A stretch of DNA of 64,000 nt from Antedon mediterranea (taxonomy: Eukaryota > Animalia > Echinodermata), in assembly GCF_964355755.1 (NCBI RefSeq), contig NC_092676.1:6425888-6489887 (forward strand), written 5' to 3'. The translations under genes were made by a program, and so were the position numbers. A model generated the notes under the pieces. That model saw nothing but the letters and a program-made list of their open reading frames with translations. It was not told where the DNA came from and ran no database searches. Of the stretch, positions 19,951-59,126 are shown one piece after another (within the stretch, counting starts at the first letter, position 1; each line of letters begins with the position of its first letter).

Positions 19951-20077
19951 AAAAAAAAATAATAATAAAGATTTCATACAATAACAATAGGTGATCATTT
20001 TATTCTAAATGATCACCTAATAATAAAGATTTCATACAATAACAATAGGTGATCATTTTATTCTAAATGATCACCTA
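19951..20077 (-). repeat. Stack 1: two orphan subfamily-A 5' caps
   Basis: Two tandem copies of AAAGATTTCATACAATAACAATAGGTGATCATTTTATTCTAAATGATCACCTA. Confidence 0.92.
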
Positions 20078-37854: not shown

Positions 37855-38441
37855 ATTATTACAGTAACGGACGACGAAGCCCTAACAAAATACAATGCAA
37901 TCCGTGGTAAGGTCGTGCCTCTGCCTACCTAGCTATATAGTAAAGTATACATTACAGGGCTGCTATCTAATATAGGCATATCTAGGAACAGTATATAATT
38001 CGAACCTAATTCAAATGATAACAATAAAGACTGGTGCATTGTATTGCCTATTTCAAATTGTTATGCACTGATGCACCTTACTCAATCAATTTTTTCCTTG
38101 TGTGTGTTTGATTTGTGCAGTGTAAGTACTTTACTTTGATAGTATGGACAGTTCTTAACATACACAATCAACACCGCACAACATGACTTTATATAAGTGG
38201 ACAAAATGACAAAACCCACAGTATCATCATCAACATTATTATTATTGTAGTATTTCATTACAGTAACAGACCAAGCTCTAACAAATAACATAAAAAACCG
38301 TGCTAGGGACATGCCGCGGCTACCTAACCAGATAGTACGGTATACAGTAAACGCCTGATACTTAACATATAAAGGCCTACCTAGGTACAGTGCACATTTA
38401 AAACATGTCGTAATTCAATTTAAATAACAATAAAGACTGGT
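37855..38441. repeat. Diverged ~185-bp direct duplication (37855-38035 / 38255-38441)
   Basis: ATTACAGTAAC...CCGTG...CTACCTA...ATAACAATAAAGACTGGTG occurs twice, ~400 bp apart. Confidence 0.65.
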
Positions 38442-39212
38442 GGTCATAATGTCATAACATATTTCTTTGTGCAATATTCCAACGTACATCGATTATTCTC
38501 TCTTTCGTTATTGTTCATCACATTTAACAGAGCTCATCTTGCTCATACGTATTCCATTTGCGCGAGATTTTAATATTGTCTACGTCATTCAACTATCTCT
38601 CGCATGAGTTAAAAATATTTCTTTTCTTATGACATCATCATGTCTAAAAATGAAAATAACTTGGGTCACTTGTTTTCAAATTTGAAATAACTTTCAATAT
38701 GTTAGCTCGTCAGAATCAAAAGTGGTAATCATCATTAAAACGTTGTTTGAAAGCTATTGGATTGCAGATACGAATTTATGTAATTATTTTGCCTATGAGT
38801 AGTTTATTCATCTTTGTCGTCAAAGTTATACACATTTCAAAGAGCGCTCACAGCGCTTCTTGGTGCCAAATTCTCTTCCAATTCTTATATTTATTTGCTC
38901 AATTCATTGTCTTTCGAAATTGTCATCTTCGAGTTTATTTTGATAATTCTATCATACAAAACAATTAGAACATGACGTGTGTCCCTAATTTCACCAATGC
39001 TACACTGTATATAGATATACAGTATATACTGTACATAACGTATATGGCATATCAGTAGGCACAACTGAGCACTACAAGCGTATAATGGGATGGCATACAT
39101 CTACATTTTCCGATTGTATGTTGACGTACGTGTATATCTAAACATATTAATGTCAATAAAATTAGAAAAATGATCACCTACAATTCGTCAAACTGACGAA
39201 TTAAATTCTAGT
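38440..39212 (+). mobile_element. Degenerate HINE fragment in opposite orientation with an A-type 3' end
   Basis: Ends AAATGATCACCTAC-AATTCGTCAaacTGACGAATT-AAATTCTAGT; the upstream part is the reverse complement of A/B bodies. Confidence 0.85.
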
Positions 39213-41424
39213 TTATCTTCTTATTGGTAAGTGAGATATAAACATTTTACATGTTCTTACCACTTGTGGTTGAAAGTCCATAAAGTATTCAGTGAACTGA
39301 TACTTGCAATAGACTCGTTATTTTTCTTTCAGATTGTATGAAATAGTAATTGATTGACTGCTTGCTGCCTGCTAGCATTACTGCTAAATCAGATGTACAG
39401 TTTGATTTATTTGGAACTATCTAAATAGTGTAAGTAAATGTTGTTTCACCAATTTACAATTACACAGGAATTGAGTGTTTAATTATTTCTATAGACTCAA
39501 TTAGGCATTCAATTCCACTGTGTGAGAAAAAATAGATTGTATTGAATTGGCACTTTACCTAATTATGTTTTGTCATTTTGAGAACATTCCTTACTTATTC
39601 AAATCTTGTTTGAAAAGCGTGTGGTATTGGCAATTTGTAACGCTGCTAGTGCATCGTATTTGGTTATTTTAAATGTGTTCGAACCGATACACCTTATTAT
39701 TATGTTGTTTTCCCCTTGCAGTTGTTTGATTGGTGCAGTGGAATTACTGTATGTTGATAGTACGGTGAGTTTCACAGATATACAGTCAACTTTGCCTAAG
39801 CTGACTTTGAATAAGTCGCAAAAGTCAAATATCTTCAAGGTAGCAATTCCTTCCTATAGTTTACCATGTTGCATTAGTATGATTGGTTTTTATGCATTGT
39901 TTACAAGACGTCAAATGTATTGTCTTTCAGTTTGTTGTATTTCTGACATCTAAACGAGAAGTTTACACCAGTTCAAATCCCGTAAGTGTAAGAATCCAAC
40001 AAATTAGTCGTTCTTCAAACTTCCCTTTATCTACAATTTCTGAAAATTTGTACAAGGAATACATGTTACTGTTAAAATATAACATCAGGTCATATGGCAT
40101 GTTTAAGATAGCAACAGACCAATGTTTCGTACAGTAATTCTCGTCAAACAGCCTCTACTTGACAGGCCTTTTTAATCTTCCTTCTGAGCCTATAAAATAT
40201 ATCAGTTATTTTAAAGTTTCCTTCAGGTTTTTAGTGGCACTTAACAGATCATGATTTAGTAAAAGGCAAATATGATAAATGTACTAAAAGTACTTGTATG
40301 TATAGGACTATTGTAGTATTATAATGTTGCTCTAATGACCTAAATAATGAATAAGATAATACACTCTGGCATTACTGTAATTTTGATACTTCTTATACCA
40401 CGATAACAATTTACGATAAATAGCTAAACATGTTATTTATAGAACACCTCCACATTGTAAATGATGAGGCCTATGGCATGGTACATAAATGTGGCACATA
40501 CAATTTATTGATATTATTGTGCTACTCCATTCCCATCGCGAGACTGGTGGCTTTGTTTTCAACTAATATTATTATTGAGTTTTTTTTCAGTTGCATTTAA
40601 TCATTGGGGATTGTTGACATTATATTTGGCTATTAACTTTGGTTCCGTTAAACCTTACAATTCTGTTGTTTTTCATTTGCAGTTGTTAATGTTTGATTAG
40701 TGTACTTGGCACGACTGTACGTTATTGTGATTACAGTAGAAAGGTACGGTAATATTAGTATGGTTCACATTGTTAGAATATTAGGTACAGATCGTGTATT
40801 GTGTTTAAATAAACGGCCTGCAGCATTTTAAACTTATAAAAAGGAGCGTTTATTAGCGGTGAACTGTACAGTCATACATAGGGCTTTCAAAGCCTAAATA
40901 CCAAGGTGCGTCGCAGAAAGTCACAATCAAACGTCATCATTTCCATACCAAACTACTTACTGCACCTAATTAACCCAACCAGGCCTACTAGATGAGCATT
41001 TCTATTGAATTACTACATCCTATGGTGTATCGACTTGTTTTTCAAGACCACATGACAAAGACTACATCAAAATAAGCGCTCACCGTTATTACCTTATCAC
41101 AGCTGCACAACACCGGGACTTCCTGTCCTGCCTATTATTTGTAAACAGGAGAATCCTATATTTATTAGGTATGCATGGACTGTTATACGCCAATAACATC
41201 AAAAATGGAGGAGGGAAGGTGTGGCGTTTATAAGACCCTTCAGTTTCTTTGGTCATAATGAAAATGGTACTTCAAATTTCATTATCATATTTCAACATTG
41301 TTTTATAAAGGTGGTTTAGATACTGTAGGTGAGGTACATCATTAGGGACTGCTGCATTGTATTTGGCTATGAAAAATTAGTTTGCACGGAAACATCTAAT
41401 TATTCCGTTCTTTTTCCCTTACAG

Positions 41425-41456
41425 GTGTGTGACTCGTGCAACGGAAGTTTGATACG
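41425..41456 (+). other. Candidate 32-nt 5'UTR exon of the RepHel transcript
   Basis: Polypyrimidine acceptor TTCTTTTTCCCTTACAG| and donor |GTAAGT. Confidence 0.4.
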
Positions 41457-42309
41457 GTAAGTGTACGAAATACAGGCAATTTCACCTTTACCTAACTTTG
41501 CTTAAGTCCCATATTTGCAAAGGCCACATTTCTTTCTAATTACCAATTCCTTACTGCAGTTTACCTTTCACAGTATATAATTATCGCCTGTAGGAGGACC
41601 ATGCTTAAAGTAGTTATTAACTAAACTGAATTCAATATTCTAAACCTATGTATAACGTTTGTATCTTGCGAACGGGGACATCAATTTGATTTACTATAAC
41701 AAATAAGCAATAAATATAGAAAAATATCTACGGTATCTATTATACACTGTATACCTTACATTTCAAATTGTCATGATAAAACAATACAATATAAATAATT
41801 GTGTGTTGTGTAATAATAATAAACCTATATGAAATAAATAAAACAAGTCTCAAGTGCTTACCAAAGAGATGTCTGCGTAACAAGTGAAGCTATAGCTATA
41901 GCTCAATTACTGTGATTACTACTGTACTAATAACCTTCTAAGTAACCCATAGTACAACTACCATTTCTATTGGTGGTCAGCCAACTTTAGGCTTCAAAGT
42001 AGCCCTTTTATGTTTACGTGAGCCTAAGCTACCTACACCCACATTAACATAACACATATGGTTGGCCACTTGCCCACTCGACACCCTTCAATTGATCCAA
42101 CCACAAACTACGGCTTGGATTGTCACTTTCACAATGTTAAATAAACCAAATTGATTATTGTTTTCATTTTATTTTCCAGTTTTGAAAACCCGATCTGCCA
42201 AACTTTGGAAGACACAGCACACATAACCACAATTAAAGCCAACTAAATATAGAAAATAAACAAAACCATACATACAAATTAATTACAAGTTAATACAAGT
42301 AAATACAGT

Positions 42310-42620
42310 ACAAGTGAAGACAAAGTGAACAAAGAAAAACTGAACAAAGAAAACTGAACACAGAAAAAGTGAACACAGAAAAAGTGAACATAGAAAAAGT
42401 GAACATAGAAAAAGTGAACATAGAAAAAGTGAACATAGAAAAAGTGAACATAGAAAAGTGAACATAGAAAAGTGAACATAGAAAAGTGACCATAGAAAAG
42501 TGAACATAGAAAAGTGAACATAGAAAAGTGAACATAGAAAAGTGAACATAGAAAAGTGAACATAGAAAAGTGAACATAGAAAAGTGAACATAGAAAAGTG
42601 AACATAGAAAAGTGAACAAA
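42310..42620. repeat. 14/15-bp minisatellite (AAAAGTGAACATAG)n
   Basis: About 20 tandem copies upstream of the ORF. Confidence 0.95.
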
Positions 42621-42629
42621 CTACAGAAA

Positions 42630-42870
42630 GAGTGAGCAAATTTTCCGAACAAGTGAACTAATTTTCCGAACAAGTGAACTAATTTTCCGAACAACTGAAC
42701 TAATTTTCCGAACAAGTGAACTAATTTTCCGAACAAGTGAACTAATTTTCAGAACAAGAGAACTTATTTTTAGAACAGTGAACTAATTTTCCGAACAAGT
42801 GAACTAATTTTTAGAACAGTGAAATAATTTTTAGAACAGCGAACTAATTTTTAGAACAAGTGAACTATCT
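42630..42870. repeat. 20/21-bp minisatellite (AACAAGTGAACTAATTTTCCG)n
   Basis: About 11 tandem copies sharing the AAGTGAAC core with the adjacent array. Confidence 0.93.
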
Positions 42871-42979
42871 TTTGTAGCCATACGTAACGATTTTTTATAG
42901 CATTTTACAGAATAAATAAATTAGTAATTGTTATAGAATTTGACACAAATTTGTGGTCTTGATTATTATACATACAGTA

Positions 42980-45900
42980 ATGGATACACAATTGATAACT
43001 GTTGTTGTTACTATGTTGTTTTTAATGTTGTTGTTAATGATGTGGTGTTTATGTACAAACCATAAAGACGTTACAAGTAAAGAGTACAACAACGACAACA
43101 CACCTGGTAAAGTTAATAATAGCATTATATATAAAACCGAGGTTACAGATGTACCCGATCAATGCTGTTTACCTACAAATGTCAAAAACGTAAGCACTCT
43201 CAACATGGACGAAAAAGATACACATACTGACATTTGTGAATTCATTAAAAAAATAGTTGATGACATCGTAAATGTTTCTTCTGGTACAGCGGTCGCCTCT
43301 GAGTTTAAGAAATGTGGCTTATGTAATATTGAATATATTGCAGATGAAAATTATGTGTCATGTGATTGTTGCAGTAAGTTTTACCATGTGACATGTGTAA
43401 GACAAATGTTTGAAGGCAAACTCTGTGATTCAAGAGTAATTTGGATCTGTTCGATGTGTGGAAATAGTAATTTTGCAAATAATATGTTGGGTGAGATAGG
43501 TATTGCGTGTCATTTTAATAGGTATATGATTCTAGAACATGATGAATCTAACGCTAAGTTTGAAGAATTTACGGAAAATGAACAGAATTGGAAGTCCAAC
43601 CAACGGAATGTAACAAAGACTAACACCAACTCACAATGCCAACAAACAGAAAGTGAAAATTCACTTGGTAGAGAATGGATTAAGGTAAGATCCAGGAAAA
43701 ATACCAGTAACAGAAAACAAGGGGGAAAAAAAAGAGGAAATAAGAACAGAAAAAAGCGTGTTATAAATGGTATAATTATTGAACTAGGTGTAACATATAT
43801 TGGTAAAGCTGTCAACGATTTCTATGAAAAACGAAACAAGAAACTGCATGAAAATGTGGATAGAGAAAAAATTCCAGACAATTCACAAACAATACTTAAT
43901 GAAAAGGTAGATGTTGATGTACATAGCCCTACGAGTGATGCTTCAGAAGTGACAACAATAACGAACACAATACAACAACTTTCTGGTGGTGGATTTAACA
44001 CGAAACAGCCACGGAAAAAAGGTCGTTTTGTCAAAAGGTCAAATAAAAAGAAATCACAAGAGGATAATGATAACCATAAAATGGATGAAGACATAAGTAA
44101 AAGTTTTATTTCAGATCACTTGGGTAATGATGACAATTCAAAAGTAATATGCAATGAAGACAACGTCTACAAAGTAGCTAGTGATGAACCAAAGAGTAAT
44201 AGCAAAATAAATCAACTAAGATTAGATAGTAGTTGTGATGTTACAGATCATGAAGTATTAATAATTGACGAGGAACAAACAAAAACATCCAAGGAAACAA
44301 TTAGGGAGAATACACGACCTACAAATAATTTTAAACAATATAATATGAATGATGATAACAGTGTCGATATTAAAGTTTCAACCAATGAATGCAAAATATC
44401 TGATGATAATACGAAAAACGTTGCGTCATTTAAGCAATACAAAAGTGTTGTAAACCCATGTAATAGTATTACTAATAATAGAACTATAGCACAGGGTAGT
44501 TTTAATCAAGGGCATTCTAGATTTGGCTATGCACGTGGTAAACAGTGTGTTGCAAATAGTCTTGTAGCTATTGTTTATTCAACAAAGAGGAATGGAAATG
44601 AATTTTATAAAAATGATCTTGACACAATATTGACACTTGGAAATGAGTTGTACTATTATATCCAAAAAGATTCCACTATGGATGAGGATCTTCTGATGAT
44701 TTCTGAACTGCCGAAAAAATTGGATATGTTAGATAGCAAATTTTTAATATCTCCCAAAGAATCAGTGTTTGGGATAATAGATGGGAGTCTTGAATCGATG
44801 GCTGAATATGGAGCCTTGTCATTAAAGCAAGCTCTTGAACAAGAATTACATCAACATGATGCCTGTTTCATGAATTTTAACAGAAGTACATTTGCTATTA
44901 TTAAACGTGTAAATGGTTTCCTTATATTTGATCCACATGCAAGAGATTGTGTTGGTTGTGTTAGTGAACATGGAAAGAGCATTTTAATTTATAGTACATC
45001 TTGGCAAGGTGTATACAGTTATTGTTTAAAGTTAGCAAGATCAATGAATTGTAATTTACATGAAACAGAGTTTGAACTGACGGGTGTAAATGTTCAAAAT
45101 GAATCTATGTTTTTATGTTCCTCTTCTTCTGTCACGTTAGATGATAATTGTGAACTAAACAACTCTGAAAATTGCGATGTTAATGCACCGGGTACATCTT
45201 CCCAGTTTAAATGTAGCAAAACATTACCTAACAACAATATTGATTCTACAATTAAAGACAACAAACATAGTAATAAAAAGGATGATGTTTCAACAAGTAA
45301 TGGATGTCAAACTGATGACGAAATTGAAATAGTTAATGTTCAGTATGGAGAGAGACCTGACAAGAATTTTAAATTTGTCCCAATTTTAGAAGCACAAAGG
45401 AAAAGTATGTGTCATAAAGTTGGCATTAATTGTGAACATACCGGTAGAAATTGTGGTATTAATCGAACAAGTCATATTGGACATCCTTGTCAAATTAAGA
45501 ATATTACGGGTGATGGTAATTGTTTTTATCGTGCAATTTCATATATTATTTCTGGGACTGAAAATAATCATTTAATTTTAAGAAAAGCAATTGGTAATCA
45601 TTTATTGGAAACTGACGACTTGTTTAGTAGTACATTAAGTGTGGAATATAGAACAGTTATGGAATATGTGATTAAAAAAAGAGTAATGGATAATGGAACA
45701 TGGGCTTCTAATACTGAAATAAGTGCAATGGCAAACTTGCTTAATACAGATATTTATTCATTCAATGATCAGCTTTTGACTTGGCAAATGTTTTCTGCAA
45801 AAAACCCTGGAAAAATTAATGAGGTTACAACTGACAACGGTATGTATATTCTATACACCAGAAATGTGCATTTTAATGTAGTGGAGTCTGTTGATTTCAA

Positions 45901-48900
45901 TTTAAATTATGTTCCGGAAACAATAACAATTGTGGATAGTGATGATGTGGATAGCTCCTCAGAAATAAGTGTAGACCCTAGTGTTATGAAAAATAATTTG
46001 ACAAAATATAACAATACACGGAAAAGAAAAGAAATTAGTCATGAAATACTTGAAGATGCTATAGGACCCAAACAGAAACGGAGTAAAAATTTCGAAGGAA
46101 GTTGTTCAAACAAAATAAAGACAATAAGAGATAATAAAACAACGATTGAAAGAAATAAACGACTTGAAAACAAAAAGCGAATGAGGACAACACGTTCAAA
46201 TGACAGTACAACGAATGTAGAGAAACATAATAAAGCGGAGGTACAACGAAAGAAATATAAAAATGATTCTGTATACAGAGAAGAAAAGAAACGTAAAGTT
46301 AAAGAGGCACAGAGAATAAAATATGCTGATGACAATTATAAATTGTCTAAAAGAAAGGAAAATCGAGAAAGACAACAGAAGGCGTACAGGTGTGACCCCA
46401 ATTATAATCTTAAAGTACGAAGTAAGATGAAACAAAATGACAACATTAAGTTGGATTATCGGACAACCAAGAAAGCTAAAAGTGTGCAATATTATAGATT
46501 GAATGAAAGGTTTAGGCAAAATTTAAAAGAGAAAAGAAAAAATAGATATCAAACTGATTTAATATTTAGACAAAACTTTAAACAAAACAATAAACAAAAT
46601 ATGGCACAAAAGTATATGAATAATTTACAATTTAGACAAAACCTGATTCAAAAACTAGCATCAAAGTATCGCAATAATTCAACATTCAGACAAAACCTTA
46701 GTCAAAAACTAGCAGCAAAGTATCGCAATAATTCAACATTCAGACAAAACTTAAAGCGGAAGTATCGAAGTATTTTGAAGCAAGACTTAGGAGAGAAATA
46801 TCGTATTGATTTAAAATTTCGTCAAAGTTGTAAGCAAAGGTTTACAGAAAAGTATCATAGCAACACAACATTTCGTCAAAGCTGTAAGAAAAAGTTTAAC
46901 GACAAATACCACAGTGATTCAAAATTTAAAACAAATTGTAATCAAAGATTTACCAAAAAATATCATGGTGATTCACTTTTCCGAAAAAATGTTGTACTAA
47001 AAAACATGAGGCATCGTAAAATACGGAGAGCAGAAAAGCGTAATTTTGAATTTGTTTTGCAAAACTTCAGAGAATCAACATCTCATGGTCCTGAATATGT
47101 TTGTTGCGTATGCTTTAAAATGTTATTCAAAAATCAAGTTGTCAAATGCACGAAAGCTAAGTACGAGTATAGGACATGTATAAATGAAAAATATTTACAT
47201 ATTTGCAACAATGAATGTAATAATCCTTGTCAATTTGCCAAATCACCAAGATGCACATTATGGATTTGTTTCACATGTCACAAGAAATTGCTGAAAGGTA
47301 AAGTCCCTGCAGAAGCCAATTCAAACAATTTAGAACTACAAGAAATTCCTCCTGAGCTAAAATGTTTAAATAATTTAGAGCAACATCTGATTGGATTAAA
47401 TATTCCTTTTATGAAATTAATGAATTTACCTAAAGGTGGACAGCATGGAATACATGGACCAGTTGTATGCGTACCATCAAATACTATTGAAACTGTAAAA
47501 ATTCTGCCTAGACCAGAGGCTGATGATCAGTTAATATCCGTAAAATTGAAGCGAAAATTGTCGTACAAAGGTTATTATAAATATAAATTTGTTAACACAT
47601 CCAATGTTATTCAAGCTCTTGAATATTTACAAGATCATAACAAATGGTATTTTGACGTAGCAATTGATGAAAATTGGCACAATTATTTGTCTAAAGAAAA
47701 CATTGAAAGTAAAACTACTAATCAACAAACATGTGTAGAAAACAATGAAGAAGAAGAAGAAGATCGATTGTGTGGTGTTGCGTTTGATACAAGTCTACAA
47801 CCTGTTGACAGGCGACAAAATTTAGTTGATGAATATTTTCGTGATATAATCTGTTGTGCACCATGTGAAAATAATAGCCCTATTGCATTATTAAGTAATG
47901 AAAACAATGAAGCAAAATCTTTTCCAGTACTATTTCCAACAGGTCAACCAACATTCCATGATACAAGAGATGTTAAGATAACACTTGGACGATACTTACA
48001 CAATAGATTAATGCATGTAGATAACAGGTTTGCAAAAAACACAGAATTTATATTTTATGCCCAATCTATATATGAACTTCAACAAATTTTATCAAGTATT
48101 TCCATAGCATTGCGAAAAGGTTCAAGTAAAAAAGATAATTTTAGTAAAGTAACTGTATCTGATTTAAAAAACATAAACAAAATTGAGGAGATTTTAAAAT
48201 CTGATAAAGGTTATAAATTTCTAAAACAAATACGTGGAACTCCACCTTACTGGCAAGCAACACAGAAAGATGTATTAGCAATGGTTAGACAGATTGGTAA
48301 ACCAACATTCTTTCTTTCATTCTCAAGTGCTGACTTACGTTGGAAAGAAATAATGACGACATTGTTGAGTCAAACAGGAGACCAAAGAAACATTGATGAT
48401 TTGGAATGGGCAGACAAATGTAATTTGCTAAAATCAAATCCAGTGACTGTTGCCAGAATGTTTGACAAACGCTTTCATACTTTTTTAAAAAAAGTTATTT
48501 TGTCTGAAACCCAGCCTATTGGTAAAGTCACAGATTATTTTTATAGAATTGAATTTCAAATGAGGGGAAGTCCACATGTTCATATGTTGGTATGGGTCGA
48601 AAATGCCCCTGTTTTTAATGAAGATGAAGATAAAAAAGTTATTGAATTTATTGACAAATATATTTCTTGTTCTGTGCCACGTCAATTTGTAGATTCTGAA
48701 ATGAATGAAATTGTTACCAGTGTGCAGATTCACAGTAAAAGACATTCGAAATCGTGTAAAAAGAAGGGAACAAATTGCAGGTTTAACTTCCCGAGACAGC
48801 CTTCTGAAAAAACATTTGTTATGAGACCTACAATTGTGGATAAAAACAATGATGATGATAATAATGATAATGATAATGCAAATAAACAAGCGCAAGAATT

Positions 48901-51900
48901 ATTAACCTCGGTAAAAAATGCTTTGACAAATGAAGAAACGTATCAAAGCGCCAAGGAACTTTTTCAAAGTTTAAATATTACTCAGGGTGCATATGAGGAT
49001 GCAAATAATTGTATAACTAATGAAGAAAAGATTGTTTTAAAGAGAAACCCCGAAGATGTGTGGGTAAATCAATACAATCCTTCCTTACTTAGAGCATGGA
49101 ATGCTAATATGGATATTCAGTACATTACCAGTGTATATGCATGTGTTACATATGTTATAGGATATATGTCAAAATCTGAACGGGAAATGGGCTTACTTTT
49201 ATCTCATGCAGCATCCGAAGTGAAAGAAGGAAATGAAAATGCCAGACAAAGCCTAAGTAAACTTGGTCATGTGTACATGAACAATCGAGAAGTATCTGCG
49301 CAAGAAAGTGTTTATCGTGTTTGTGGCTTGAGATTGAAAGAATGTTCAAGGAAAGTTGAATTTATCCCAGTAGGACCTAATCCTGTTAGAATGAGTTTAC
49401 CACTAAGTGTAATTAAAAACAAAGTGGATGATAATCAAAGTGCATGGTTGCCAAATAAGCTCGACAAATATAAAGCTCGACCAAATAATTCTGAATTTAA
49501 TACAATGTGTCTTGCAACATTTTGTTCTTATTACAGAATGTTAAGTACATCAGAAATGAAAGGAAACGTGCAAAGAAAGAACGTATTCCAGTTACAAAAA
49601 AAACTAGGATTCATCCAAAAAAGAACACGAACTGACAATGCTATAATAAGGTACCCTCGGTTTCCAATGAATACAGCATCTGAAAAATATTTTATGAGTA
49701 TATTGCAGTTATTTTTGCCATTTCGAACAGATAAACAGTTAAAACCATTGAAATTTCAAACATATCAAGAATTTTATGAGCTAGGATCTGTAAAATTATA
49801 TGGCAGTAAATTACAAAAAGTAAATGTTATAGTTGATGAAAACATGGAAAGGTATGACAAAACTGCAGATGCTATTAAACATGCAGAAGGGGTTTTAGCA
49901 AAATTTGGACCACAAGAAGATGCATGGGGTCTATTATGTCCGGAAAGTGAAAAGGAAAGATTAGAGAATCCAAAGCCAAATGTAGACGTTGATGATGAAG
50001 AAAATGAATTTTTTGTTCCAGATTTTGGCCTAAAAAAAAATGAAACATCTACAATAGAGTGTAACTCATCTAGTATTTCAAGACCGGAACTGAACAAAAT
50101 GATTCGATCTTTAAATAAACAACAAAAACAAATATTTTATAAGACAAGGCAATGGTGCTTGGATAAAGTTAATGGCAAACAACCTGAATCGTTTTACACT
50201 TTTATAACTGGAGGCGCTGGCACTGGAAAAAGCCATTTGGTTAATTGTATTTATAATGAAGCAACACGTATTCTCGGAAAAATGTTGGAAAATCCGGATG
50301 ATATGTCAATATTGAAACTAGCTCCTACAGGGATTGCAGCATATAATATTAAAGGTCATACCATTCATAGTGCTTTGTCTATTCCTATTCATATTTCACT
50401 TCCATATCAACCACTTGGAGAAGAAAAAATAAGTGCACTTCGTAATCAGTTAGGTCAATTGCAAATTGTTATTATAGATGAAATATCAATGGTAAATCAA
50501 AAGTTACTCTGGTACATCCACGGACGATTGCGGCAAATAAAGCAAGTACGTAATGATAGTGCATTTGGTAATATTTCAATAATTGCAGTTGGTGATTTTT
50601 ATCAGTTACCGCCTGTGAGGGGCACTTCTTTGTATAAAAACACATTGGAAAACTCATTATGGGTAGATAACTTTAAAAGAGTGCAGTTAGATGAAATCAT
50701 GAGGCAAAAAGAAGATAAAGAGTTTGCTGTACTTTTAAACAAATTGCGCACAAAAGAAAGAAATGATTGCTTGTCTGACAAAGATTTATCAGTTTTAAAA
50801 TCATGTGAAACAGGTGAACAATGTGACGATGCTGTTCATATATACCCATGTAATAAGCAGGTTAATGAATGGAATAAAACAATGTTGCATAAAACATGTT
50901 TAGATATTATATGCATTGAAGCAGAGGATACTGTAGTAAACAGCAAGAAACAAGACAAACATTGTGATAAACCTCGGAAATCATGTCAAACTAATTTATT
51001 AAATTATCTGTGGATTGCACTTAATGCCAGAGTGATGTTGATTAAAAATGTAGATGTTAAAAAAGGCTTAACAAATGGATGTATGGGACATGTGGAAGAA
51101 ATAATTAAGCCCAGTCCAAACGCTAAACCAATATCAATTAAAGTGAAATTTGATAACAAGGACATTGGTATTCAGGCAATTGAAATGTTTCAAGAATCTA
51201 TTGGAAAAAAATACAGTCGAAAGCAATTCCCACTCAAATTAGCATATGCATGCACAGTTCATAAAGTGCAAGGAATGACAATGAATAAAGCACTGGTTTG
51301 CCTTAAAAATACCTTTGCGCCTGGACAAGCATATGTAGCACTCAGTCGTGTTACCTCAATATCTGGACTTACCATTGAACATGTTAATTCTAAGTTGATT
51401 TATTGTGATCCTACTATAAAGGAATATTTAAACAAGATGAATTCATACATACAATGTGATAAAGAAGTTAATGATTCTGGTTCTGAATTTTCAATAATGT
51501 TACATAATATTCAAGGGCTTAAACAACATTTTGCTGATCTTCAGTGCAATGATTTGATTATGAATTCTACTACCATATGTCTAACTGAAACATGGCTAAA
51601 TAAGGATGATGATTTTGTTGACTTAAGTATAGAGCCGTATAAATTCTATCACCAAGCAAGATATGACTCATATTCTAATAAAAATGATTACTTAAAAAAT
51701 CAGGCTCATGGTGGAGTTGCAGTCTATACTAAGAACAAATTTTCAAGCAGGTTAGACATAGGTATTAACGACATAGAGGTAATTTCATTTTTAATAACAT
51801 GTCCAATTTCAGTTGCTGTATCAGTAATTTATAGACCTCCGAGCTATGATATTAAACAATTTTGTCAAAATTTGAGGAAGTTATTAAAAAAGGTGCATAA

Positions 51901-52138
51901 AGTAAGTACAAAATGTATCATAATGGGCGACTTTAATGAAAATCTTTTCAAACAACCTTCCAAAGTGAATATTTTAATGACAGAGAGTGGTTATCAACAA
52001 CATGTTACAAGTTCTACTACTGAAAGTAATACATTGATTGATCATGTATATAGCAAAGGTCTAGATTCAATGCAGGCACATGTAATTCCAATTTATTATA
52101 GTTACCATGAGGCCATTCAAATTAAATTTGGATTATAA
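42980..52138 (+). CDS. Helentron/Helitron2 RepHel polyprotein (PHD, C76-like DUB, OTU, Zn finger, HUH Rep, Pif1-family helicase, AP endonuclease)
   Basis: Uninterrupted frame (open from 42953, first ATG 42980). Motifs: PHD CGLC..CDCC..H..C..CSMC; GSFNQG..GKQC..FDPH; GDGNCFYRAIS..HFNVV; IRGTPPYW, PTFFLSFS, EFQMRGSPHVH, YVIGYMSK; GGAGTGKS, IIDEISM, GDFYQLPPV, TVHKVQGMT, YVALSRV; HNIQGL, LTETWL, IYRPP, GDFN, IDHVY, SYH. Confidence 0.95.
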   Translation: MDTQLITVVVTMLFLMLLLMMWCLCTNHKDVTSKEYNNDNTPGKVNNSIIYKTEVTDVPDQCCLPTNVKNVSTLNMDEKDTHTDICEFIKKIVDDIVNVSSGTAVASEFKKCGLCNIEYIADENYVSCDCCSKFYHVTCVRQMFEGKLCDSRVIWICSMCGNSNFANNMLGEIGIACHFNRYMILEHDESNAKFEEFTENEQNWKSNQRNVTKTNTNSQCQQTESENSLGREWIKVRSRKNTSNRKQGGKKRGNKNRKKRVINGIIIELGVTYIGKAVNDFYEKRNKKLHENVDREKIPDNSQTILNEKVDVDVHSPTSDASEVTTITNTIQQLSGGGFNTKQPRKKGRFVKRSNKKKSQEDNDNHKMDEDISKSFISDHLGNDDNSKVICNEDNVYKVASDEPKSNSKINQLRLDSSCDVTDHEVLIIDEEQTKTSKETIRENTRPTNNFKQYNMNDDNSVDIKVSTNECKISDDNTKNVASFKQYKSVVNPCNSITNNRTIAQGSFNQGHSRFGYARGKQCVANSLVAIVYSTKRNGNEFYKNDLDTILTLGNELYYYIQKDSTMDEDLLMISELPKKLDMLDSKFLISPKESVFGIIDGSLESMAEYGALSLKQALEQELHQHDACFMNFNRSTFAIIKRVNGFLIFDPHARDCVGCVSEHGKSILIYSTSWQGVYSYCLKLARSMNCNLHETEFELTGVNVQNESMFLCSSSSVTLDDNCELNNSENCDVNAPGTSSQFKCSKTLPNNNIDSTIKDNKHSNKKDDVSTSNGCQTDDEIEIVNVQYGERPDKNFKFVPILEAQRKSMCHKVGINCEHTGRNCGINRTSHIGHPCQIKNITGDGNCFYRAISYIISGTENNHLILRKAIGNHLLETDDLFSSTLSVEYRTVMEYVIKKRVMDNGTWASNTEISAMANLLNTDIYSFNDQLLTWQMFSAKNPGKINEVTTDNGMYILYTRNVHFNVVESVDFNLNYVPETITIVDSDDVDSSSEISVDPSVMKNNLTKYNNTRKRKEISHEILEDAIGPKQKRSKNFEGSCSNKIKTIRDNKTTIERNKRLENKKRMRTTRSNDSTTNVEKHNKAEVQRKKYKNDSVYREEKKRKVKEAQRIKYADDNYKLSKRKENRERQQKAYRCDPNYNLKVRSKMKQNDNIKLDYRTTKKAKSVQYYRLNERFRQNLKEKRKNRYQTDLIFRQNFKQNNKQNMAQKYMNNLQFRQNLIQKLASKYRNNSTFRQNLSQKLAAKYRNNSTFRQNLKRKYRSILKQDLGEKYRIDLKFRQSCKQRFTEKYHSNTTFRQSCKKKFNDKYHSDSKFKTNCNQRFTKKYHGDSLFRKNVVLKNMRHRKIRRAEKRNFEFVLQNFRESTSHGPEYVCCVCFKMLFKNQVVKCTKAKYEYRTCINEKYLHICNNECNNPCQFAKSPRCTLWICFTCHKKLLKGKVPAEANSNNLELQEIPPELKCLNNLEQHLIGLNIPFMKLMNLPKGGQHGIHGPVVCVPSNTIETVKILPRPEADDQLISVKLKRKLSYKGYYKYKFVNTSNVIQALEYLQDHNKWYFDVAIDENWHNYLSKENIESKTTNQQTCVENNEEEEEDRLCGVAFDTSLQPVDRRQNLVDEYFRDIICCAPCENNSPIALLSNENNEAKSFPVLFPTGQPTFHDTRDVKITLGRYLHNRLMHVDNRFAKNTEFIFYAQSIYELQQILSSISIALRKGSSKKDNFSKVTVSDLKNINKIEEILKSDKGYKFLKQIRGTPPYWQATQKDVLAMVRQIGKPTFFLSFSSADLRWKEIMTTLLSQTGDQRNIDDLEWADKCNLLKSNPVTVARMFDKRFHTFLKKVILSETQPIGKVTDYFYRIEFQMRGSPHVHMLVWVENAPVFNEDEDKKVIEFIDKYISCSVPRQFVDSEMNEIVTSVQIHSKRHSKSCKKKGTNCRFNFPRQPSEKTFVMRPTIVDKNNDDDNNDNDNANKQAQELLTSVKNALTNEETYQSAKELFQSLNITQGAYEDANNCITNEEKIVLKRNPEDVWVNQYNPSLLRAWNANMDIQYITSVYACVTYVIGYMSKSEREMGLLLSHAASEVKEGNENARQSLSKLGHVYMNNREVSAQESVYRVCGLRLKECSRKVEFIPVGPNPVRMSLPLSVIKNKVDDNQSAWLPNKLDKYKARPNNSEFNTMCLATFCSYYRMLSTSEMKGNVQRKNVFQLQKKLGFIQKRTRTDNAIIRYPRFPMNTASEKYFMSILQLFLPFRTDKQLKPLKFQTYQEFYELGSVKLYGSKLQKVNVIVDENMERYDKTADAIKHAEGVLAKFGPQEDAWGLLCPESEKERLENPKPNVDVDDEENEFFVPDFGLKKNETSTIECNSSSISRPELNKMIRSLNKQQKQIFYKTRQWCLDKVNGKQPESFYTFITGGAGTGKSHLVNCIYNEATRILGKMLENPDDMSILKLAPTGIAAYNIKGHTIHSALSIPIHISLPYQPLGEEKISALRNQLGQLQIVIIDEISMVNQKLLWYIHGRLRQIKQVRNDSAFGNISIIAVGDFYQLPPVRGTSLYKNTLENSLWVDNFKRVQLDEIMRQKEDKEFAVLLNKLRTKERNDCLSDKDLSVLKSCETGEQCDDAVHIYPCNKQVNEWNKTMLHKTCLDIICIEAEDTVVNSKKQDKHCDKPRKSCQTNLLNYLWIALNARVMLIKNVDVKKGLTNGCMGHVEEIIKPSPNAKPISIKVKFDNKDIGIQAIEMFQESIGKKYSRKQFPLKLAYACTVHKVQGMTMNKALVCLKNTFAPGQAYVALSRVTSISGLTIEHVNSKLIYCDPTIKEYLNKMNSYIQCDKEVNDSGSEFSIMLHNIQGLKQHFADLQCNDLIMNSTTICLTETWLNKDDDFVDLSIEPYKFYHQARYDSYSNKNDYLKNQAHGGVAVYTKNKFSSRLDIGINDIEVISFLITCPISVAVSVIYRPPSYDIKQFCQNLRKLLKKVHKVSTKCIIMGDFNENLFKQPSKVNILMTESGYQQHVTSSTTESNTLIDHVYSKGLDSMQAHVIPIYYSYHEAIQIKFGL

Positions 52139-53859
52139 TCTTTATATTAACTCAGATGTTTAATCTTAATCGGAATTGTTTTAAGGAAGGTTAAACAAAC
52201 TTATAAACAGAACTTTAATAAAGAAAATCATAAAACGAACATAAAATAGAACTGGATAAAAACAAACAAATTTTAAAAAGAACTAAAAAACAATAGCAAT
52301 TCTCTGCAGAAAGAAATACCCACTAAAACTAACATACTGTACGTGACATACAAGAATGTTATATAGGTTACATTTAATTTTTTTGGAATCCCATTTTAAT
52401 AGTACAGTATTATAGTTATTAATTATGTCTATAGTTAGGAAAAGTCTGGATCGAATCCAAACAGACGATATTTATTATAGTTATTATATAAGGTGTTGTT
52501 GTGTTGTTGTAAGGCCATTTCAAATTATATTGGGATTATAATCTTTACATTTATTCCTATGTCCTATTATTATGAAAAATTAAGAAAAAAAAAAAGAATT
52601 TTACAAACAGAACTTAATAAATCTTTCTTCATAGGAGACAAGCATAACTGCCAAAATCTGTATGGAGGAATACATTATTATCAGGTGAGTAAACCCTCAT
52701 GTTAGGGATTATTGGAATTAACGCCTCTATGCAGAGTAGTTTTCTGACTGCTCCGCCACCTTTGATATGAGATCTTTTCATATTTTGTGCGGTCATCTCT
52801 GGAAAAGATCTCGTTCGGAATAGTATTATCTCATTCACATATATATAAAATAATGAATTAAATATGAATTTCAAAAATGCTATGATACACAGATAGTGTG
52901 TATATAACAACCTCATTATCTATTAAATAAATAAGTTAATAAAACTGTTAAAAAAACATTTCATTTGATACGATTAACAATTTGATTAGACATATTTTAA
53001 TGTATACCTTTTTTATGGTACTTGTTTTTCTTTCTATTCAGATAGCATTTATAATAATTCAACACAAGTAGGCTTCTTATGCAAGTGTTACGGAGTGTAA
53101 TGAAATTAAATGGTTTCAAATTGTAATCAATGTTTGTGGTCAAGCAAAATGAGGTCCATTACAAGAATTGAAGACAGTCATAGATATATTTATAAAAGAA
53201 ATAATTACGGACTTCAGAAAAGAACCCTTTGTGCATAATTATGTTGTTATTGATGATGCTACTACCCGTAGAAGTATATTGCAATAGACAACACATTATA
53301 ATTATTGGTGTATTATTTTAATACAAATTGTATAAGTAAGGTCACATGTAGTGCGGCAACTTAAACAATACCGCGTAAAAATACTTTGATTATACGTCCT
53401 ATCATTATTTTTAATAAATGTGTTTATAAATAAATAGTCTTATAATTATTATATTTTAGCAAAAACAAATCTTTCTTTTGTACATATAATTCACTATTTA
53501 ATAGTTTCTTCTTTTATTTCCTCTTTATTTCCTTTTTTGGCTGCTTGTGTATCCTGTTTTTGTATTTATTTATGTTTTAGCTATTTTTTGGTAGTCCAAT
53601 GGCTAGTTTTATGACAGATAGAAGTGTTCACGTAGAGTATTCAATGCCACGTCTTGATGGCGAATTTTGCATAAACCAAAAAATTATCCATGTGAAAAAA
53701 TCAATATAATTGTAGGCCTAATATAATTGTTTATCCATAGACGAATTAATTTGCAAAATATGTGTATGATATGAAAAAAATATACAATTTTTATTATGTA
53801 AACTATTAAATGAAATGAGTTTAATCTACACAGTTTGAATAATTATTAACACACATTGT

Positions 53860-54705
53860 TGAATTGACATTATAATGTTCAAACTTGAAATAGAAACAGG
53901 ATATTAGATAACCAAAATTACAAACCAATCGGAGAATCAAATGGAATATTCTGATTTAAAACATATTAAAATGAAGTCACTCTGATATAACATATAATAT
54001 TTCTAGATGCGCGTTCTTAAATGGAATGAAAATCCGATTTTACTTGACCTGGCCAGATGACGTCACAAATCCAATAGGAAAATGTTTTCATGAATTCATA
54101 TCTACAATTTAACAGCTTCCATATTAAGTTTTATGGCTATCACTTTAAATTTGGAGAGAGTTATGAGAGATGGATGTATATTATAAAGATAAAATAAGTG
54201 ATCCAAGTTGTTCCAATTTTTAGACATGATGACTTTATAAAAAATAAAATATTTTTAAATCAGAAGACAGAAAATTGATCATAATATATACCGTAGTTGA
54301 GCTGAACTCTGTCTATATTTGTGCCATATCCACGTGCATGTACGTTAAAAATTATGCACATAAAAAAATTAGGCTATGTCATTATGACCTGAAGAATATA
54401 AATTCTGTCTATTTTGTGTCTTATAGTATCAGTATACCATATACTCTATACATTATTATACAGTCTAGCATAATTAAAATATTAGTCTCGACTTCAATTC
54501 TTCAATTTTTAATATGATGACCCATCAAAATGAAACAGGAAGATAGCAACTTCGGAAGACAATCAACTGATCACAAACATATTAACATGTTAAAGAATTT
54601 GAATACGTAAAATATAGATGCTCTTTTAAATGAGATGAAGTATGACGCAAAAGATGAAAATACGACTTTTTTTATTCAACTGACCATATGATGACGTCAC
54701 AACAC
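53860..54705 (-). mobile_element. Old degenerate HINE-body fragments downstream of the ORF
   Basis: Diverged matches such as CTGGCCAGATGACGTCACAAATCCAATAGG, CACGTGCATGTACGTT, GACCATATGATGACGTCACAAC; no termini. Confidence 0.7.
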
Positions 54706-56009
54706 GCACGTACACTAAATTAAGTAATTATTGCTAGGTAAATAGGGTCAAAGAATATATATCACAAGAATGAGTATTCCGCGATTTTTGCATGAGAAAT
54801 TTGTAACACAGAGCTCCAGTGAATGAGGCCCGCCCTCATAAGGGTGGATGTATACATACTAAATAAAACTTGATTTAATAGATATTATACATGTCACATT
54901 AAATAGAATTATGATAATAGTTTTTGCAATTGTAAACTATTTTATAATACATATTTATTAACAAACTAGTGTACATTCACTTTTACAGACAATTATTTAC
55001 TAACATGCTAAGTTAGTTCACAAAAAAGGCCTAACACAGCAACACCAAAAATCAACGAATCGTTACTCAGCACGGCCTATTCATTACCATTGCCGTGTAC
55101 TACTCTACGCCCGGTAAATTAAGTATTGTTTTTATGATATAAATTAGTATAAAATACATGTTATTAATAGGACAAAATGATAAATGTCTTTAACATTTAT
55201 TTGTTTTACCAGAAACAAGTTAAATATAGGAATATTATTAAACTATCCTTCGTGAAAACGCGTAAACACCAACACGCCCGGTCACGCTATCGTAGCGCCC
55301 GGTTGATAAAGCAAACTGTTTATACGGCAGTTTTTACTAAATAAATTGCATAAAAATAACAATTAAATATCCAAATAGTATTTAACATGATGTTGGCATC
55401 ATGGATCTATTCTTTAATCCATGTTGGCATGTAGTTGTAGTAGTTTATCCTGAAAATGCTACCGGTGGTCTAGCCTTTGATTATTGAAACCGTCACAAAA
55501 AGTTGTATACATCCCAGATACATCCACACTTATGGCGGCGCCCTACCACATGGACAATATTACTGTTACAGGGAAAATCGCGGATTACTCATTCTTGTGA
55601 TATATATTCCTTGATAGGGTTTATGTTTATGATGACAGGTAGTGTCAGGTTCGGCGAATGTAAAATTCCGTCGACTTCAAGTATAATGTAAATAGATAAA
55701 TGATGAAGGTACAAGTAGGTTAAATTCTCATGAGCCTTTTGTTCATATAAGGTAGAACTTATAATTACAAGATACAACACAATTAAGTAGAAATATATAT
55801 ATATATATATTCACGTCCCACTAGCTTGGAATCAAAACGAAGAGTGCCAGAGGCCTACTAGGTCCCTGGATAAGTTGTTTACCACAATTAAGCGAGTAGT
55901 TGAATTACACGCACAGTAAAATAGCCAATCAGAACCTAGTCTTATTTGGCCTGCTACATTATAGAAATAGGTAGGAAATAAATTATTTGCGCTATACCAT
56001 TACGTCACG

Positions 56010-57477
56010 GTCAGTATAAACAGTTAAATATGTATACATAAATTATTATATACAGTGTAGAATAGGTAAAATTACGGGACCCGCCATTTATTCCAATTTT
56101 TAACATGGCGACGGTAACAAAATGAAACACTAAGTTAGCAATTTCGGAAGGAAATTATATCAGCAACAACATATTAACGTGTAGAAGAAATTTGAATACG
56201 TAAAATATAGATGCGCGCCCTTTTAAATGTGATGAACTTTGGCGTAAAATATGAAAATACGACTTTTTGTATTCAACTGGCCATATGATGACGTCAAAAC
56301 ATCTGATTGGCAAAATGTTTACATGATTTCGTATCTACAATCCAATAGCTTCCAGAAAACGTTTTAATTGTGATTATCACATTTTATTCTTACGAGCTAT
56401 AATATATTTAAATTTAATGTAAAGATGAAATTAATGCCACACGTAATATAAATTTTTAGTTATGATGACGTCATAAAAATTAAATTATTTTTAATTCATG
56501 CGAAAGATAGTTGATTGACCTAGACAATATCACAATCGGGGTGAAAATGGAAAACGGATAAGTGGAGATGCGCTCTATTAAATGTGATGAGCTATGACGA
56601 AAGATACAAAAATCCTATATTTTATATTTGCGTGGCTATACGATGACGTCACAATGTTCGGTTAGCCATATTAATACCTGATCCGATATCTACAACTCAT
56701 CAACTTCCAGAATATATCATCCACAAAAAGTTGACCGTGTAGTTTTGAAATTACGACTGTTTAAAAAAAGGTATACTTTTGACAAATTTTGACGAATTTT
56801 TGAACTTTTCCATCAAAAACACACGTAAATGATCCAATTCGACGTGCTCGTATGACGTAATTTTAAGTCAAAATTATTTAAAAGTTGGTAAAATTACTAG
56901 AAAAGGCTGGAAAAACCTAAATTACTCGAAAAAAATTGTTTTCAACGCTACGTGCGCACCACGCGCGTAAAAATATTCGCGCGCGTGGGAATTTTTTGCA
57001 TGCTCAAAATGACATGAAACGCGTAGAAAGTTGATTAGAAATTGATTTTTTGTATTTTAAAATTTTAAACGCGCGTGCGCGCGTAACTTCGTGTGAAACA
57101 TGCCATTTTTTTTCCACAGTCGGTTAGCGCAGAATATAAATTAAACTTTTGCTAAGTTTCAATTTAAATTGTTATATGGTTTTTGATTAATGTTAAATAC
57201 GCTAAATTCGTTAAAATGCGCGTAAGTCATGTTGCGCAATTCTGACGTCATTCAAAAATAAAAAAGCACAACTTCACGTGAATGCCCATATGTTGACAAA
57301 GTTATGAAATGTTAACTGTACACGTTTTTGAGATATGCTCTGCACAAAAATGACAGAAAGAAAGAAGAATACAGAAAAAAAAAAAAGATGATGAAACAGG
57401 ACAGTTACAAGGAGTTATCCGTGAAAGCGGATGAAACAGGACAGTTACAAGGAGTTATCCGTGAAAGCGGATAACTA
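56010..57477 (-). mobile_element. HINE-type 5' arm (subfamily E/B3) with cap but no adjacent 3' end
   Basis: B-like body from ~56010; cap GAGTTATCCGtgaaagCGGATAACTA with a 40-bp tandem duplication (57390/57430). Confidence 0.85.
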
Positions 57478-57596
57478 AAAAAGATGATGTTGATCTCGTA
57501 CAATCACAAGAGGTTATCCTGCAACTTCGTTGCGGATAACCAAAAATATTGATCCCATACAATAACAAGGAGTTATCCGCCAAGTGCGGATAACTA
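57478..57596 (-). repeat. Stack 3: two orphan 5' caps (B2, B1)
   Basis: Match the caps of complete B2 and B1 units. Confidence 0.92.
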
Positions 57597-59126
57597 ACTA
57601 GAATTTAATTCGTCACTTTGACGAATTATAGGTGATCATTTTTATCGCTTTACTGACATTAATATTTTTTAAACATGCACGTACGTTAACATACAATAGG
57701 AAAATGTTGATGTATACCATCCTGATATACGCTTATAGTGCTGAGTTGTGCCTATTATGTGTCATATACAATATGTACAGTATATACTGTATATCTATAT
57801 ACAGTGTAGCATAGGTGAAATTACGGGACCCACATCATGTTCAAATTTTTTGGTATGATGGAATTATCAAAATAAACTCAAAGATGACAATTTCGAAAGA
57901 TAATGAATTGAGCAAATAAAAATAAGGATTGGAAGATAATTTGACACGTAGAAGCGCAATGCGCGCTCTTTGAAATTTGTATAACTTTGACTAAAGAAAT
58001 TTAAAAACAACGTTTTAACTTCAACTGGCCATATGATAACATCACAACATCCGATAGGCTTAATTTTTATATTAATTCATATCTACATTACATCAGCTTT
58101 CATAATAAGTTATAATTTTCAAGGTCACCTTTAATTCTGAAGAGCTATAATATATTCAAATGTAAGGTGTAGCTGAAATTACACGACCTACGTTATTCAA
58201 GTTTTTACGCGTGATGATGTCATCAAAATAAAAATATTGACAACTCCTGAGAAAGATAATTAATTGAGCAAGCCCATCCTAAAATTTGTGCGCAAATCAG
58301 GCTCAAATAACGGAGATGGGCTCTGTTGAATGTGATAACCCACACAAAAACATAAAAATTACTAATTTTTAAATTCAAGTGGCCATTTGATGACGTCATA
58401 CCATTTTGTACGTCTAATGTGTATATACATTTATATCTACAACTTATTGGCTTCCATATTAAGTTAAAAAAATTAGGGGTCATCTTCCATTCTGAAGAGT
58501 TATATTCATTTTAAAAAGGCCTTAATTTTTACCATTTTTAGCACTTTTGTACAATTAATGTGCGCATTTTGTCATTTTTAACGTGCTCGTATAGCACTAT
58601 TTTAAATCGAAATGGACTCACAATTTACGCTTTCTAAATACGCACGTGCAAAAACGTGTTTTTGCGCAGTAATTTTTTAAAACACGCAAATGGCCTATTT
58701 TATGCTCTAAATTGATCAAAACTTAATTTTGAGCTTTTTAAAATTTTAACGCGCGATTTCACGTGCATGACCTTGAAACACGTAAGTTTTTATTTTTTAA
58801 TATTTTTACCCTTCACCTGAAGTTTACGTATAGTGAATTTTATTGATATGTGATAAAGAGTTATGGAGATATGATTTATAGTGTGATTTCACAAAATCGC
58901 GTATACGTGACGTCACGGTTGAGTGATAACGCTGAAAAGCTTATTATGGCTAAGTTAAAGTATTTGAAAGACACTGTGAATTTTTTGTGATCATTGCCAT
59001 TCAACTTTTTGAGATAATTGTTACACAAAAAGTGTACAGAAAGAATAAAAAAAAAAAAAAAAATAATAATAATAAAGATTTCATACAATAACAATAGGTG
59101 ATCATTTTATTCTAAATGATCACCTA
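57597..59126 (-). mobile_element. HINE subfamily A unit 22 (complete)
   Basis: Both termini present; small deletion near 58620. Confidence 0.9.

What the first reader, a model, noticed from the sequence alone, without database searches (positions are those of the whole stretch)
57387..57596. Cap stack 3 closes elements opened 30-34 kb away
E cap, then B2 cap, then B1 cap match the remaining open units 15 (B2) and 12 (B1) in the right order. Unit 12 rebuilds exactly (3+4=7 A between CAG and TATTGATCCC). Cap E has a 40-bp tandem duplication with GAT microhomology that still leaves an intact terminal hairpin.
Basis: seen in the sequence. Interest (0 to 1): 0.7.

Follow-up and report, generated by a model that had tools for sequence, protein, structure and literature searches.

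The report
Russian-doll nest of Helentron transposons
Three mobile-element ends sit side by side here, and two of them are the exact missing tips of elements that break off 30 and 34 kb upstream, most likely because rolling-circle transposons kept jumping into the same short A-rich spot near one end of earlier copies, finally swallowing a 20-kb stretch that carries an unbroken transposase gene.

Summary
Confirmed, with one correction. The window holds 22 co-oriented ~1.5-kb non-autonomous Helentrons (HINE/DINE-1 type) and an unbroken 3,061-aa Rep-helicase-endonuclease ORF, probably from a feather star. At 57387-57597 three terminal hairpin 'caps' are stacked. The last two rejoin unit 15 (29.6 kb upstream) and unit 12 (34.3 kb). 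Unit 12 rebuilds with 0 differences from intact unit 13. Correction: cap E closes the body right beside it, and that body lacks its own far end. It likely borrowed unit 16's end by read-through, moving ~22.6 kb with the transposase gene (inferred, about even odds). The 40-bp duplication with GAT overlap is real. All seven rejoined breaks lie 52-69 nt from the cap tip. Self-insertion giving stacked 5' termini was proposed for Fusarium Helitrons; this scan also noted the same last-in-first-out nest in another genome (e1-7626375). A clear, unusually legible variant of a known kind. No long read spans it here.

The parts
57390..57429 (-). First copy of the 40-bp tandem duplication in cap E (hairpin arm incomplete)
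   Evidence: identical to 57430-57469, 43-nt match, GAT overlap; bin 57409-57427 has depth 19.7 in X6 and 0 in X7, X8, X1
57430..57477 (-). Cap E, whole copy: subterminal repeat plus inverted repeat hairpin (5' end by HINE convention); closes the adjacent E body
57478..57542 (-). B2-variant cap; missing tip of unit 15
57543..57596 (-). B1 cap; missing tip of unit 12
   Evidence: 0 differences from unit 13's cap over the last 50 nt
56002..57389 (-). E body: HINE-like sequence, 86% identical to B2 units from model position ~166 on; no opening (CTAG-hairpin-subTIR) end
21661..23194 (-). Unit 12 (B1), open: interrupted in its A7 tract
23195..26376 (-). Units 13 (B1) and 14 (B2), intact, head to tail inside unit 12; serve as references
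26377..27903 (-). Unit 15 (B2 variant), open: interrupted at the start of its A5 tract
27904..36291 (-). Units 16-21, inner nest (16, 17, 19 open and closed in stack 2; 18 and 20 have no cap; 21 carries its own)
36292..36476 (-). Cap stack 2, orphan caps closing units 19, 17 and 16 in that order
   Evidence: edit distances 0, 1, 0
36477..56001 (.). 19.5-kb non-array stretch enclosed by the nest: splice-site-like segments, short tandem repeats, decayed HINE fragments and the transposase gene
42953..52138 (+). Unbroken Helentron ORF, 3,061 aa: herpes-tegument-type and OTU protease domains, Rep, PIF1 helicase, C-terminal endonuclease; Helentron Rep motif 2 at aa 1863
38491..39212 (+). Truncated family copy in the opposite orientation to the array (opening end at 39211)
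4089..21660 (-). Units 1-11 (A family and one C unit) with cap stack 1 at about 19905-20077
57597..59126 (-). Unit 22 (A family), intact, last unit of the cluster

Best explanation
The two outer caps at 57478-57596 are the cut-off tips of units 15 and 12, pushed 30-34 kb away, most likely by repeated insertion of Helentron-family elements into the short A/T tract just inside the terminal hairpin of earlier copies. Shown: exact junction rebuilds, last-in-first-out order, matching subterminal repeats, and all 7 rejoined breaks within 52-69 nt of the cap tip. Inferred mechanism: the Rep-helicase-endonuclease inserts a single-strand copy at T-rich sites without target duplication. Each element carries such a T tract beside its own 5' hairpin, so every new copy supplies the next landing site on the same strand, which makes all copies co-oriented, lines the bodies up in tandem and stacks the tips. 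Order of events for this stack (inferred): unit 12 first; units 13, 14 and 15 entered its A7 tract; then a large unit running from cap E to the opening end of unit 16 (about 22.6 kb without units 17-21) entered unit 15's A5 tract. That large unit is best read as a chimera (probability about 0.55): copying began at cap E, ran through the transposase region, and stopped at the first same-orientation 3' end, which belonged to a B1 HINE (unit 16). Cap E and unit 16 share a 12-nt subterminal repeat. Capless units 18 and 20 would be the mirror case, read-through from an inner cap. The 40-bp duplication is most simply a later slippage or microhomology repair at GAT.
For:: rebuilds at distance 0 (u12, u16, u19) and 1 (u17); swapping the two B1 caps gives 5 and 9 A rather than 7 and 7; 1 of 2,520 assignments all exact and it is last-in-first-out (21 of 2,520); intact unit-15 variant with 5 A in an X6 contig, 30 of 30 letters equal to window 57479-57508; of the 7 loose ends listed, all 4 that leave at 27904 begin with the four A and GATG of the stack-3 cap, none with the B2 cap text of stack 2; unit 15 is the diverged B2 body (56 and 61 differences from u14, u17, which differ by 36), and it pairs with the diverged cap; subterminal repeats 14 and 12 nt for the true pairs; only 4-5% of AA sites of an intact unit lie 45-80 nt from the tip, yet 7 of 7 rejoined breaks do (about 1e-9 if uniform; window chosen after looking, so read it as about 1e-8); contigs join caps to caps in several other orders (B2 to E, B1 to B2-variant, E to E), and one search shows tail-to-opening junctions at contig depths of 1,510 and 2,292 in X6, so the habit looks genome-wide; cognate-type transposase inside the nest. 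Literature passages: T-rich/TT targeting with no target change (PMC4067079); self-insertion giving several 5' termini and stopping at the first 3' terminus (PMC5148889, section 16); read-through measured at about 11.7% for Helraiser (PMC4778049).
Against: No read or contig spans 30 kb; Logan contigs are short here and all holders at half the words or more are one sample, possibly the one assembled, so they are not independent of the assembly's source. Six open units have no cap (u1, u2, u4, u8, u18, u20), so the bookkeeping is not complete: 22 openings, 17 whole caps. The two stack-1 rebuilds are not exact against in-window references (distance 3 each, in A/AAT runs). X9 links the unit-15 tail to a different later cap variant, so tail and cap variants are not one-to-one. 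Units 12 and 13 are identical over 1,534 nt, which a tandem duplication could also give. The chimera step is untested: no second copy of the 36.5-56 kb stretch was seen, and the ORF runs antisense to the HINE-convention direction (reported as the minority arrangement in PMC4067079). That this transposase moves these HINEs is inferred from co-location and domain type only.
Confidence: 0.85

Rival explanations
1. The nest is real, but the 19.5-kb middle did not arrive as one read-through unit. The transposase element inserted separately with ends not recognised here, or the stretch came in by recombination between HINE bodies, and E simply lost its opening end by deletion.
For: The middle holds decayed fragments and other repeats (54004-54279, 54321-54705, a 41-nt inverted pair 54748/55614), while the ORF is unbroken; ORF orientation is opposite to the usual one; E's homology stops ~170 nt short of where its opening end should be.
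Against: No subterminal-repeat or hairpin end of the array families on either strand between 36478 and 57386 except the reversed fragment at 39.2 kb. The only candidate inverted pair flanking the ORF (13 nt, 36496/52441) is at chance level: shuffles give 1.27 such matches on average. Cap E matches unit 16's subterminal repeat over 12 nt.
Confidence: 0.35
2. Stack 3 arrived ready-made as a multi-terminus composite (E body plus three caps) copied from another locus, and units 12 and 15 are capless passengers like units 18 and 20; the match is coincidence.
For: Composites with several 5' termini and one 3' terminus are described (PMC5148889); cap-to-cap joints are common in the runs; six other units are capless.
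Against: Needs the right subfamily, the rare variant, both A counts and the order to fit by chance.
Confidence: 0.05
3. The array is a rolling-circle concatemer or an unequal-crossover product rather than serial insertion.
For: Head-to-tail junctions are precise (8 of 8 with 2 A); u12 = u13 over 1,534 nt; tandem Helitron arrays from rolling-circle amplification are reviewed in PMC12628747.
Against: Neighbours belong to different subfamilies (66-100% identity), which one circle cannot give; breaks differ from unit to unit yet each is completed exactly by a distant cap.
Confidence: 0.05
4. Misassembly of a high-copy repeat joined unrelated pieces.
For: The families are at very high depth in the runs; no spanning read was available; bins 57371-57408 had no cover because the tool skipped repeats there.
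Against: An assembler would not split A runs 4+5, 6+3, 2+5, 2+2 and 1+6 so that each sums to the intact length in nested order.
Confidence: 0.03

Closest known systems
HINE / DINE-1 non-autonomous Helentrons (Thomas et al. 2014, PMC4067079; passages read)
   Same: 12-14 nt subterminal inverted repeats, one at the very end with a partner inverted repeat, the other about 30 nt from the far end behind a stem-loop; T at both ends; T-rich targets; no target duplication; partner with Rep, helicase, endonuclease and OTU domains.
   Different: Here several subfamilies insert into a 52-69 nt window of one another's 5' end and form a 55-kb nest; the passages read do not describe that. The 3' end also carries a Helitron-like CTAG just inside the terminal T.
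Fusarium FoHeli multiple 5' termini from self-insertion (Chellapan et al. 2016, PMC5148889; passages and section 16 read)
   Same: Short (<200 bp) stacked 5' termini; model of copying from a 5' terminus to the first 3' terminus met; reversed ORF orientation discussed.
   Different: There the stacks are seen with one 3' terminus and nesting is the proposed cause; here the host bodies are still in place, so each stacked tip can be matched to its body in last-in-first-out order, up to 34 kb away.
Helraiser end-bypass / read-through (Grabundzija et al. 2016, PMC4778049; passages read)
   Same: Copying past a missing or skipped 3' end to a later terminator would give both the E composite and the capless units.
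   Different: Shown for a canonical Helitron; here it is inferred for a Helentron from structure only.
Double insertion making TE dimers (McGurk and Barbash 2018, PMC5932611; abstract and passages read)
   Same: Insertion-site preference builds head-to-tail and tail-to-internal tandems that can seed arrays.
   Different: Those cases rest on target duplications in Drosophila elements; here there is no duplication and the target is part of the element itself.

Membership tests
HINE / DINE-1-like (non-autonomous Helentron) | 11-15 nt subterminal inverted repeats, one 0-4 nt from the 5' end, the other some 20-60 nt from the 3' end | tested here: met
   12-14 nt, starting at the cap terminus (terminal TT included) and 30-31 nt from the far end
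HINE / DINE-1-like (non-autonomous Helentron) | Inverted repeat or palindrome at the 5' subterminal repeat | tested here: met
   9-13 bp hairpins at every cap
HINE / DINE-1-like (non-autonomous Helentron) | Short stem-loop between the 3' subterminal repeat and the 3' end | tested here: met
   9-10 bp stem about 10 nt from the end
HINE / DINE-1-like (non-autonomous Helentron) | Insertion in T-rich sites / TT with no target duplication | tested here: met
   empty-site rebuilds need removal of exactly 2 A(T) and nothing else; one search gives a real empty site for unit 15. Exact TT is not obeyed at every site under either way of splitting the 2 letters
HINE / DINE-1-like (non-autonomous Helentron) | No coding capacity | tested here: met
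   only four ORFs of 100 aa or more overlap the units or their edge (108, 108, 114, 102 aa or less); these were not searched against Pfam
HINE / DINE-1-like (non-autonomous Helentron) | Autonomous partner sharing both termini | tested here: inconclusive
   E body and cap lie 3.9-5.3 kb downstream of the ORF, but no native opening end was found; no genome held
Helentron (HLE2) transposase | Rep + PIF1 helicase with C-terminal AP-type endonuclease in one ORF | tested here: met
   PF14214, PF05970, PF03372
Helentron (HLE2) transposase | Diagnostic F/Y-x-R before motif 2 and S between G and P | tested here: met
   motif at aa 1863 fits the signature quoted from PMC4067079
Helentron (HLE2) transposase | Rolling-circle transposition of these elements by this protein | not testable with these tools
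   needs a mobilisation assay
Canonical Helitron (HLE1) | 5' TC start, no subterminal inverted repeats, A|T target | tested here: not met
   5' end reads TT and subterminal repeats are present; only the CTAG near the 3' end is shared

The most novel reading that the evidence does not exclude
These Helentrons carry their own landing pad: the transposase is drawn to the T tract beside the 5' hairpin of resident copies (or to the exact end), across subfamilies, so the family grows safe-haven nests tens of kilobases long, and an autonomous element can borrow a passenger HINE's 3' end and move a 22-kb chimera into the nest. The stacks are then a base-exact time record of subfamily activity.
Probability: 0.35. 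Interest if true: 0.7.

Novelty: new variant of a known kind. Interest (0 to 1): 0.5.

Why it matters
It gives direct structural support for a model that was proposed but, in the passages read, not shown with the host bodies in place: stacked Helentron termini come from self-insertion. It makes Helentron target choice testable, since breaks cluster in an 18-nt-wide window beside the 5' hairpin. It offers a route from dispersed rolling-circle elements to long tandem-looking arrays that needs neither concatemers nor unequal crossover. It also warns annotators: such arrays look like truncated tandem copies unless distant caps are matched. Nested transposons as such are ordinary, which caps the interest.

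Tried and rejected
No whole genome is held for this window, so copy numbers and paralogous empty sites could not be counted. A 28-nt motif of the B2-variant cap gave 0 matches in metagenome contigs. Related loci for the Rep-helicase alignment were all distant (25-37% identity, 80 loci kept of 554) and were not used. tblastn of 121 proteins against the non-ORF parts of the middle and the flanks gave no hit at E 0.01, and my idea that 36478-38490 is an inverted second Helentron 5' region failed: its similarity to 39645-39829 and 41336-41528 is same-strand. Twelve short frames from the middle gave no Pfam hit above cut-off. A 13-nt inverted pair flanking the ORF was rejected as chance. Reading the 40-bp duplication as a second E cap that lost its tip gives the same letters but needs an E-type open body between units 15 and 16; there is none, and pairing it with unit 18 would cross the nesting order. 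Runs X1-X5 hold only small shares (0.05-0.16) and are no evidence of habitat; X1 was laid once. Summed contig depths are not copy numbers and were used only as a rough sign. The lack of cover at 57371-57408 proves nothing. A place look-up of earlier findings in this genome returned nothing.

Full report
What is in the window. The window is AT-rich (about 32% GC), holds a ~1.56-kb repeat array and one long ORF at 42953-52138. The ORF encodes 3,061 aa with Helitron Rep, PIF1 helicase, a C-terminal endonuclease, and OTU and herpes-tegument-type protease domains, and carries the Helentron form of Rep motif 2 (signature quoted from PMC4067079). Its closest named relatives are proteins of the feather star Antedon mediterranea (89-90% over most of the query region; one at 99% over 45%), so the host is probably a crinoid (inference).

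Anatomy of the units. A pattern scan found 22 opening ends (A, CTAG, a 9-10 bp hairpin, then a subterminal repeat) and 17 whole caps (the same repeat plus its inverse as a terminal hairpin, then AA) between 4089 and 59126. Subterminal repeats are 12-14 nt and subfamily-specific. This fits HINE/DINE-1 elements lying on the minus strand, with the cap as the 5' end (features from passages of PMC4067079; T-T target for HLE2 in PMC11417382). Bodies fall into subfamilies A, B1, B2, C, D and E at 65-100% identity.

The observation. At 57387-57597 cap E, a B2-variant cap and a B1 cap follow one another. All 8 of 8 cap-to-opening junctions in the window have exactly 2 A, so removing an element removes 2 A. 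Rejoining unit 12 (4 A) with the last cap (5 A) gives 7 A and distance 0 to intact unit 13. Unit 16 (6 A) with the last cap of stack 2 (3 A) also gives 7; swapping the two caps gives 5 and 9. Units 19 and 17 rebuild at distance 0 and 1. Unit 15 has no intact twin in the window (distance 8 to unit 14). All 4 of the 7 listed loose ends that leave at 27904 start the same way; the X9 one then differs. With that pair accepted, 1 of 2,520 assignments of five orphan caps to seven open B-group units rebuilds every junction, and it is among the 21 last-in-first-out orders. The two stack-1 pairs (A family) were left out of this count; they rebuild at distance 3. The spans are 29,573 and 34,347 nt. The 40-bp duplication in cap E is exact with a GAT overlap; its junction bin has cover only in X6 (19.7), against about 417,000 summed depth on the whole E cap beside it, which suggests a rare or private change.

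Correction. Cap E closes the body next to it. That body matches B units only from model position ~166 and has no opening end anywhere back to 36478. So between the tip of unit 16 (36476) and E lies a 19.5-kb stretch with the transposase gene, enclosed by the nest but without its own start.

How it most likely works. All 7 rejoined breaks lie 52-69 nt from the cap tip, in an A-rich tract that holds only 4-5% of a unit's AA sites; the other insertions sit exactly at an element end. A T-seeking, duplication-free insertion would put each new copy in the same orientation into the tract of an older one, lining up bodies and stacking tips. Contigs show caps joined to caps in other orders and tail-to-opening junctions at high depth, so this looks like a genome-wide habit, though these runs are one sample and summed depth is no copy number. 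For the middle I favour a chimera of about 22.6 kb: copying from cap E through the transposase region to the first same-orientation 3' end, that of unit 16, with which cap E shares 12 nt of subterminal repeat. This is the model drawn in section 16 of PMC5148889, and read-through is measured for Helraiser (PMC4778049). It is inferred, about 0.55; separate arrival of the transposase element is the main rival (0.35). Whether the hairpin guides the transposase, or the tract is just an easy-melting T run, is untested.

Against. No read spans the nest; no genome was held; six open units lack caps; units 12 and 13 are identical; the ORF is antisense to the conventional direction; the link between this protein and these HINEs is not shown.

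Known and new. Stacked 5' termini by self-insertion (PMC5148889; passages and section 16), dimers by site preference (PMC5932611; abstract and passages), shuffled Helentron loci in oysters and rolling-circle arrays (review PMC12628747; passages), Helitron-like arrays in cnidarians (PMC11934779; passages) and computational de-nesting of LTR elements (10.64898/2026.09.17.752431; passages) are in print. Nine searches listed no paper whose title or abstract describes last-in-first-out Helentron nests targeted to a subterminal window, and the one crinoid search gave a sea-star genome paper only; the library lacks most subscription journals, and I opened no supplements, so the additional files of PMC5148889 (multiple termini table) and PMC4067079 may bear on novelty. 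Verdict: real, well supported, a new variant of a known kind; interest 0.5.

Noticed in passing
window 21662-23195 and 23196-24729: Units 12 and 13 are identical over 1,534 nt while other B1 copies differ by 9-12; a daughter copy may have re-inserted into its own donor, or local conversion occurred.
   Followed up: partly
window 6181, 7735, 10860, 17110: Four A-family units (1, 2, 4, 8) end at the same capless breakpoint about 32 nt short of the normal tip, each followed by an opening end; looks like a passenger subfamily amplified as dimers.
   Followed up: partly
window 30965-32394: Capless unit 18 shares a 13-nt subterminal repeat with cap E, more than with any other cap, so it may belong to the E-cap subfamily; it also has an internal deletion and a duplicated tail.
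   Followed up: partly
window 9302, 12444, 14022, 20079, 21662, 24784, 26378, 57598: All eight head-to-tail junctions are exact with 2 A, several between different subfamilies, suggesting insertion precisely at element ends.
   Followed up: partly
window 54748-55614: A 41-nt inverted pair at 95% identity may bound a separate ~870-nt terminal-inverted-repeat element.
   Followed up: no
window 38030-38211, 39645-39829, 41336-41565: Three same-strand copies of a ~190-nt segment with splice-site-like motifs upstream of the transposase ORF, perhaps repeated non-coding exons.
   Followed up: partly
window 52110-52159 and 52512-52562: The last codons of the ORF and the start of its 3' flank are duplicated at 84% about 400 nt downstream.
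   Followed up: no
window 42330-42860: Short tandem repeats of about 14 and 22 nt just upstream of the ORF.
   Followed up: no
window 4256-4830 and 4801-5375 (approx.): Unit 1 carries an internal 545-nt tandem duplication.
   Followed up: no
window 1-780, 3154-3616, 62302-62435: Unrelated minisatellite-like repeats in both flanks.
   Followed up: no
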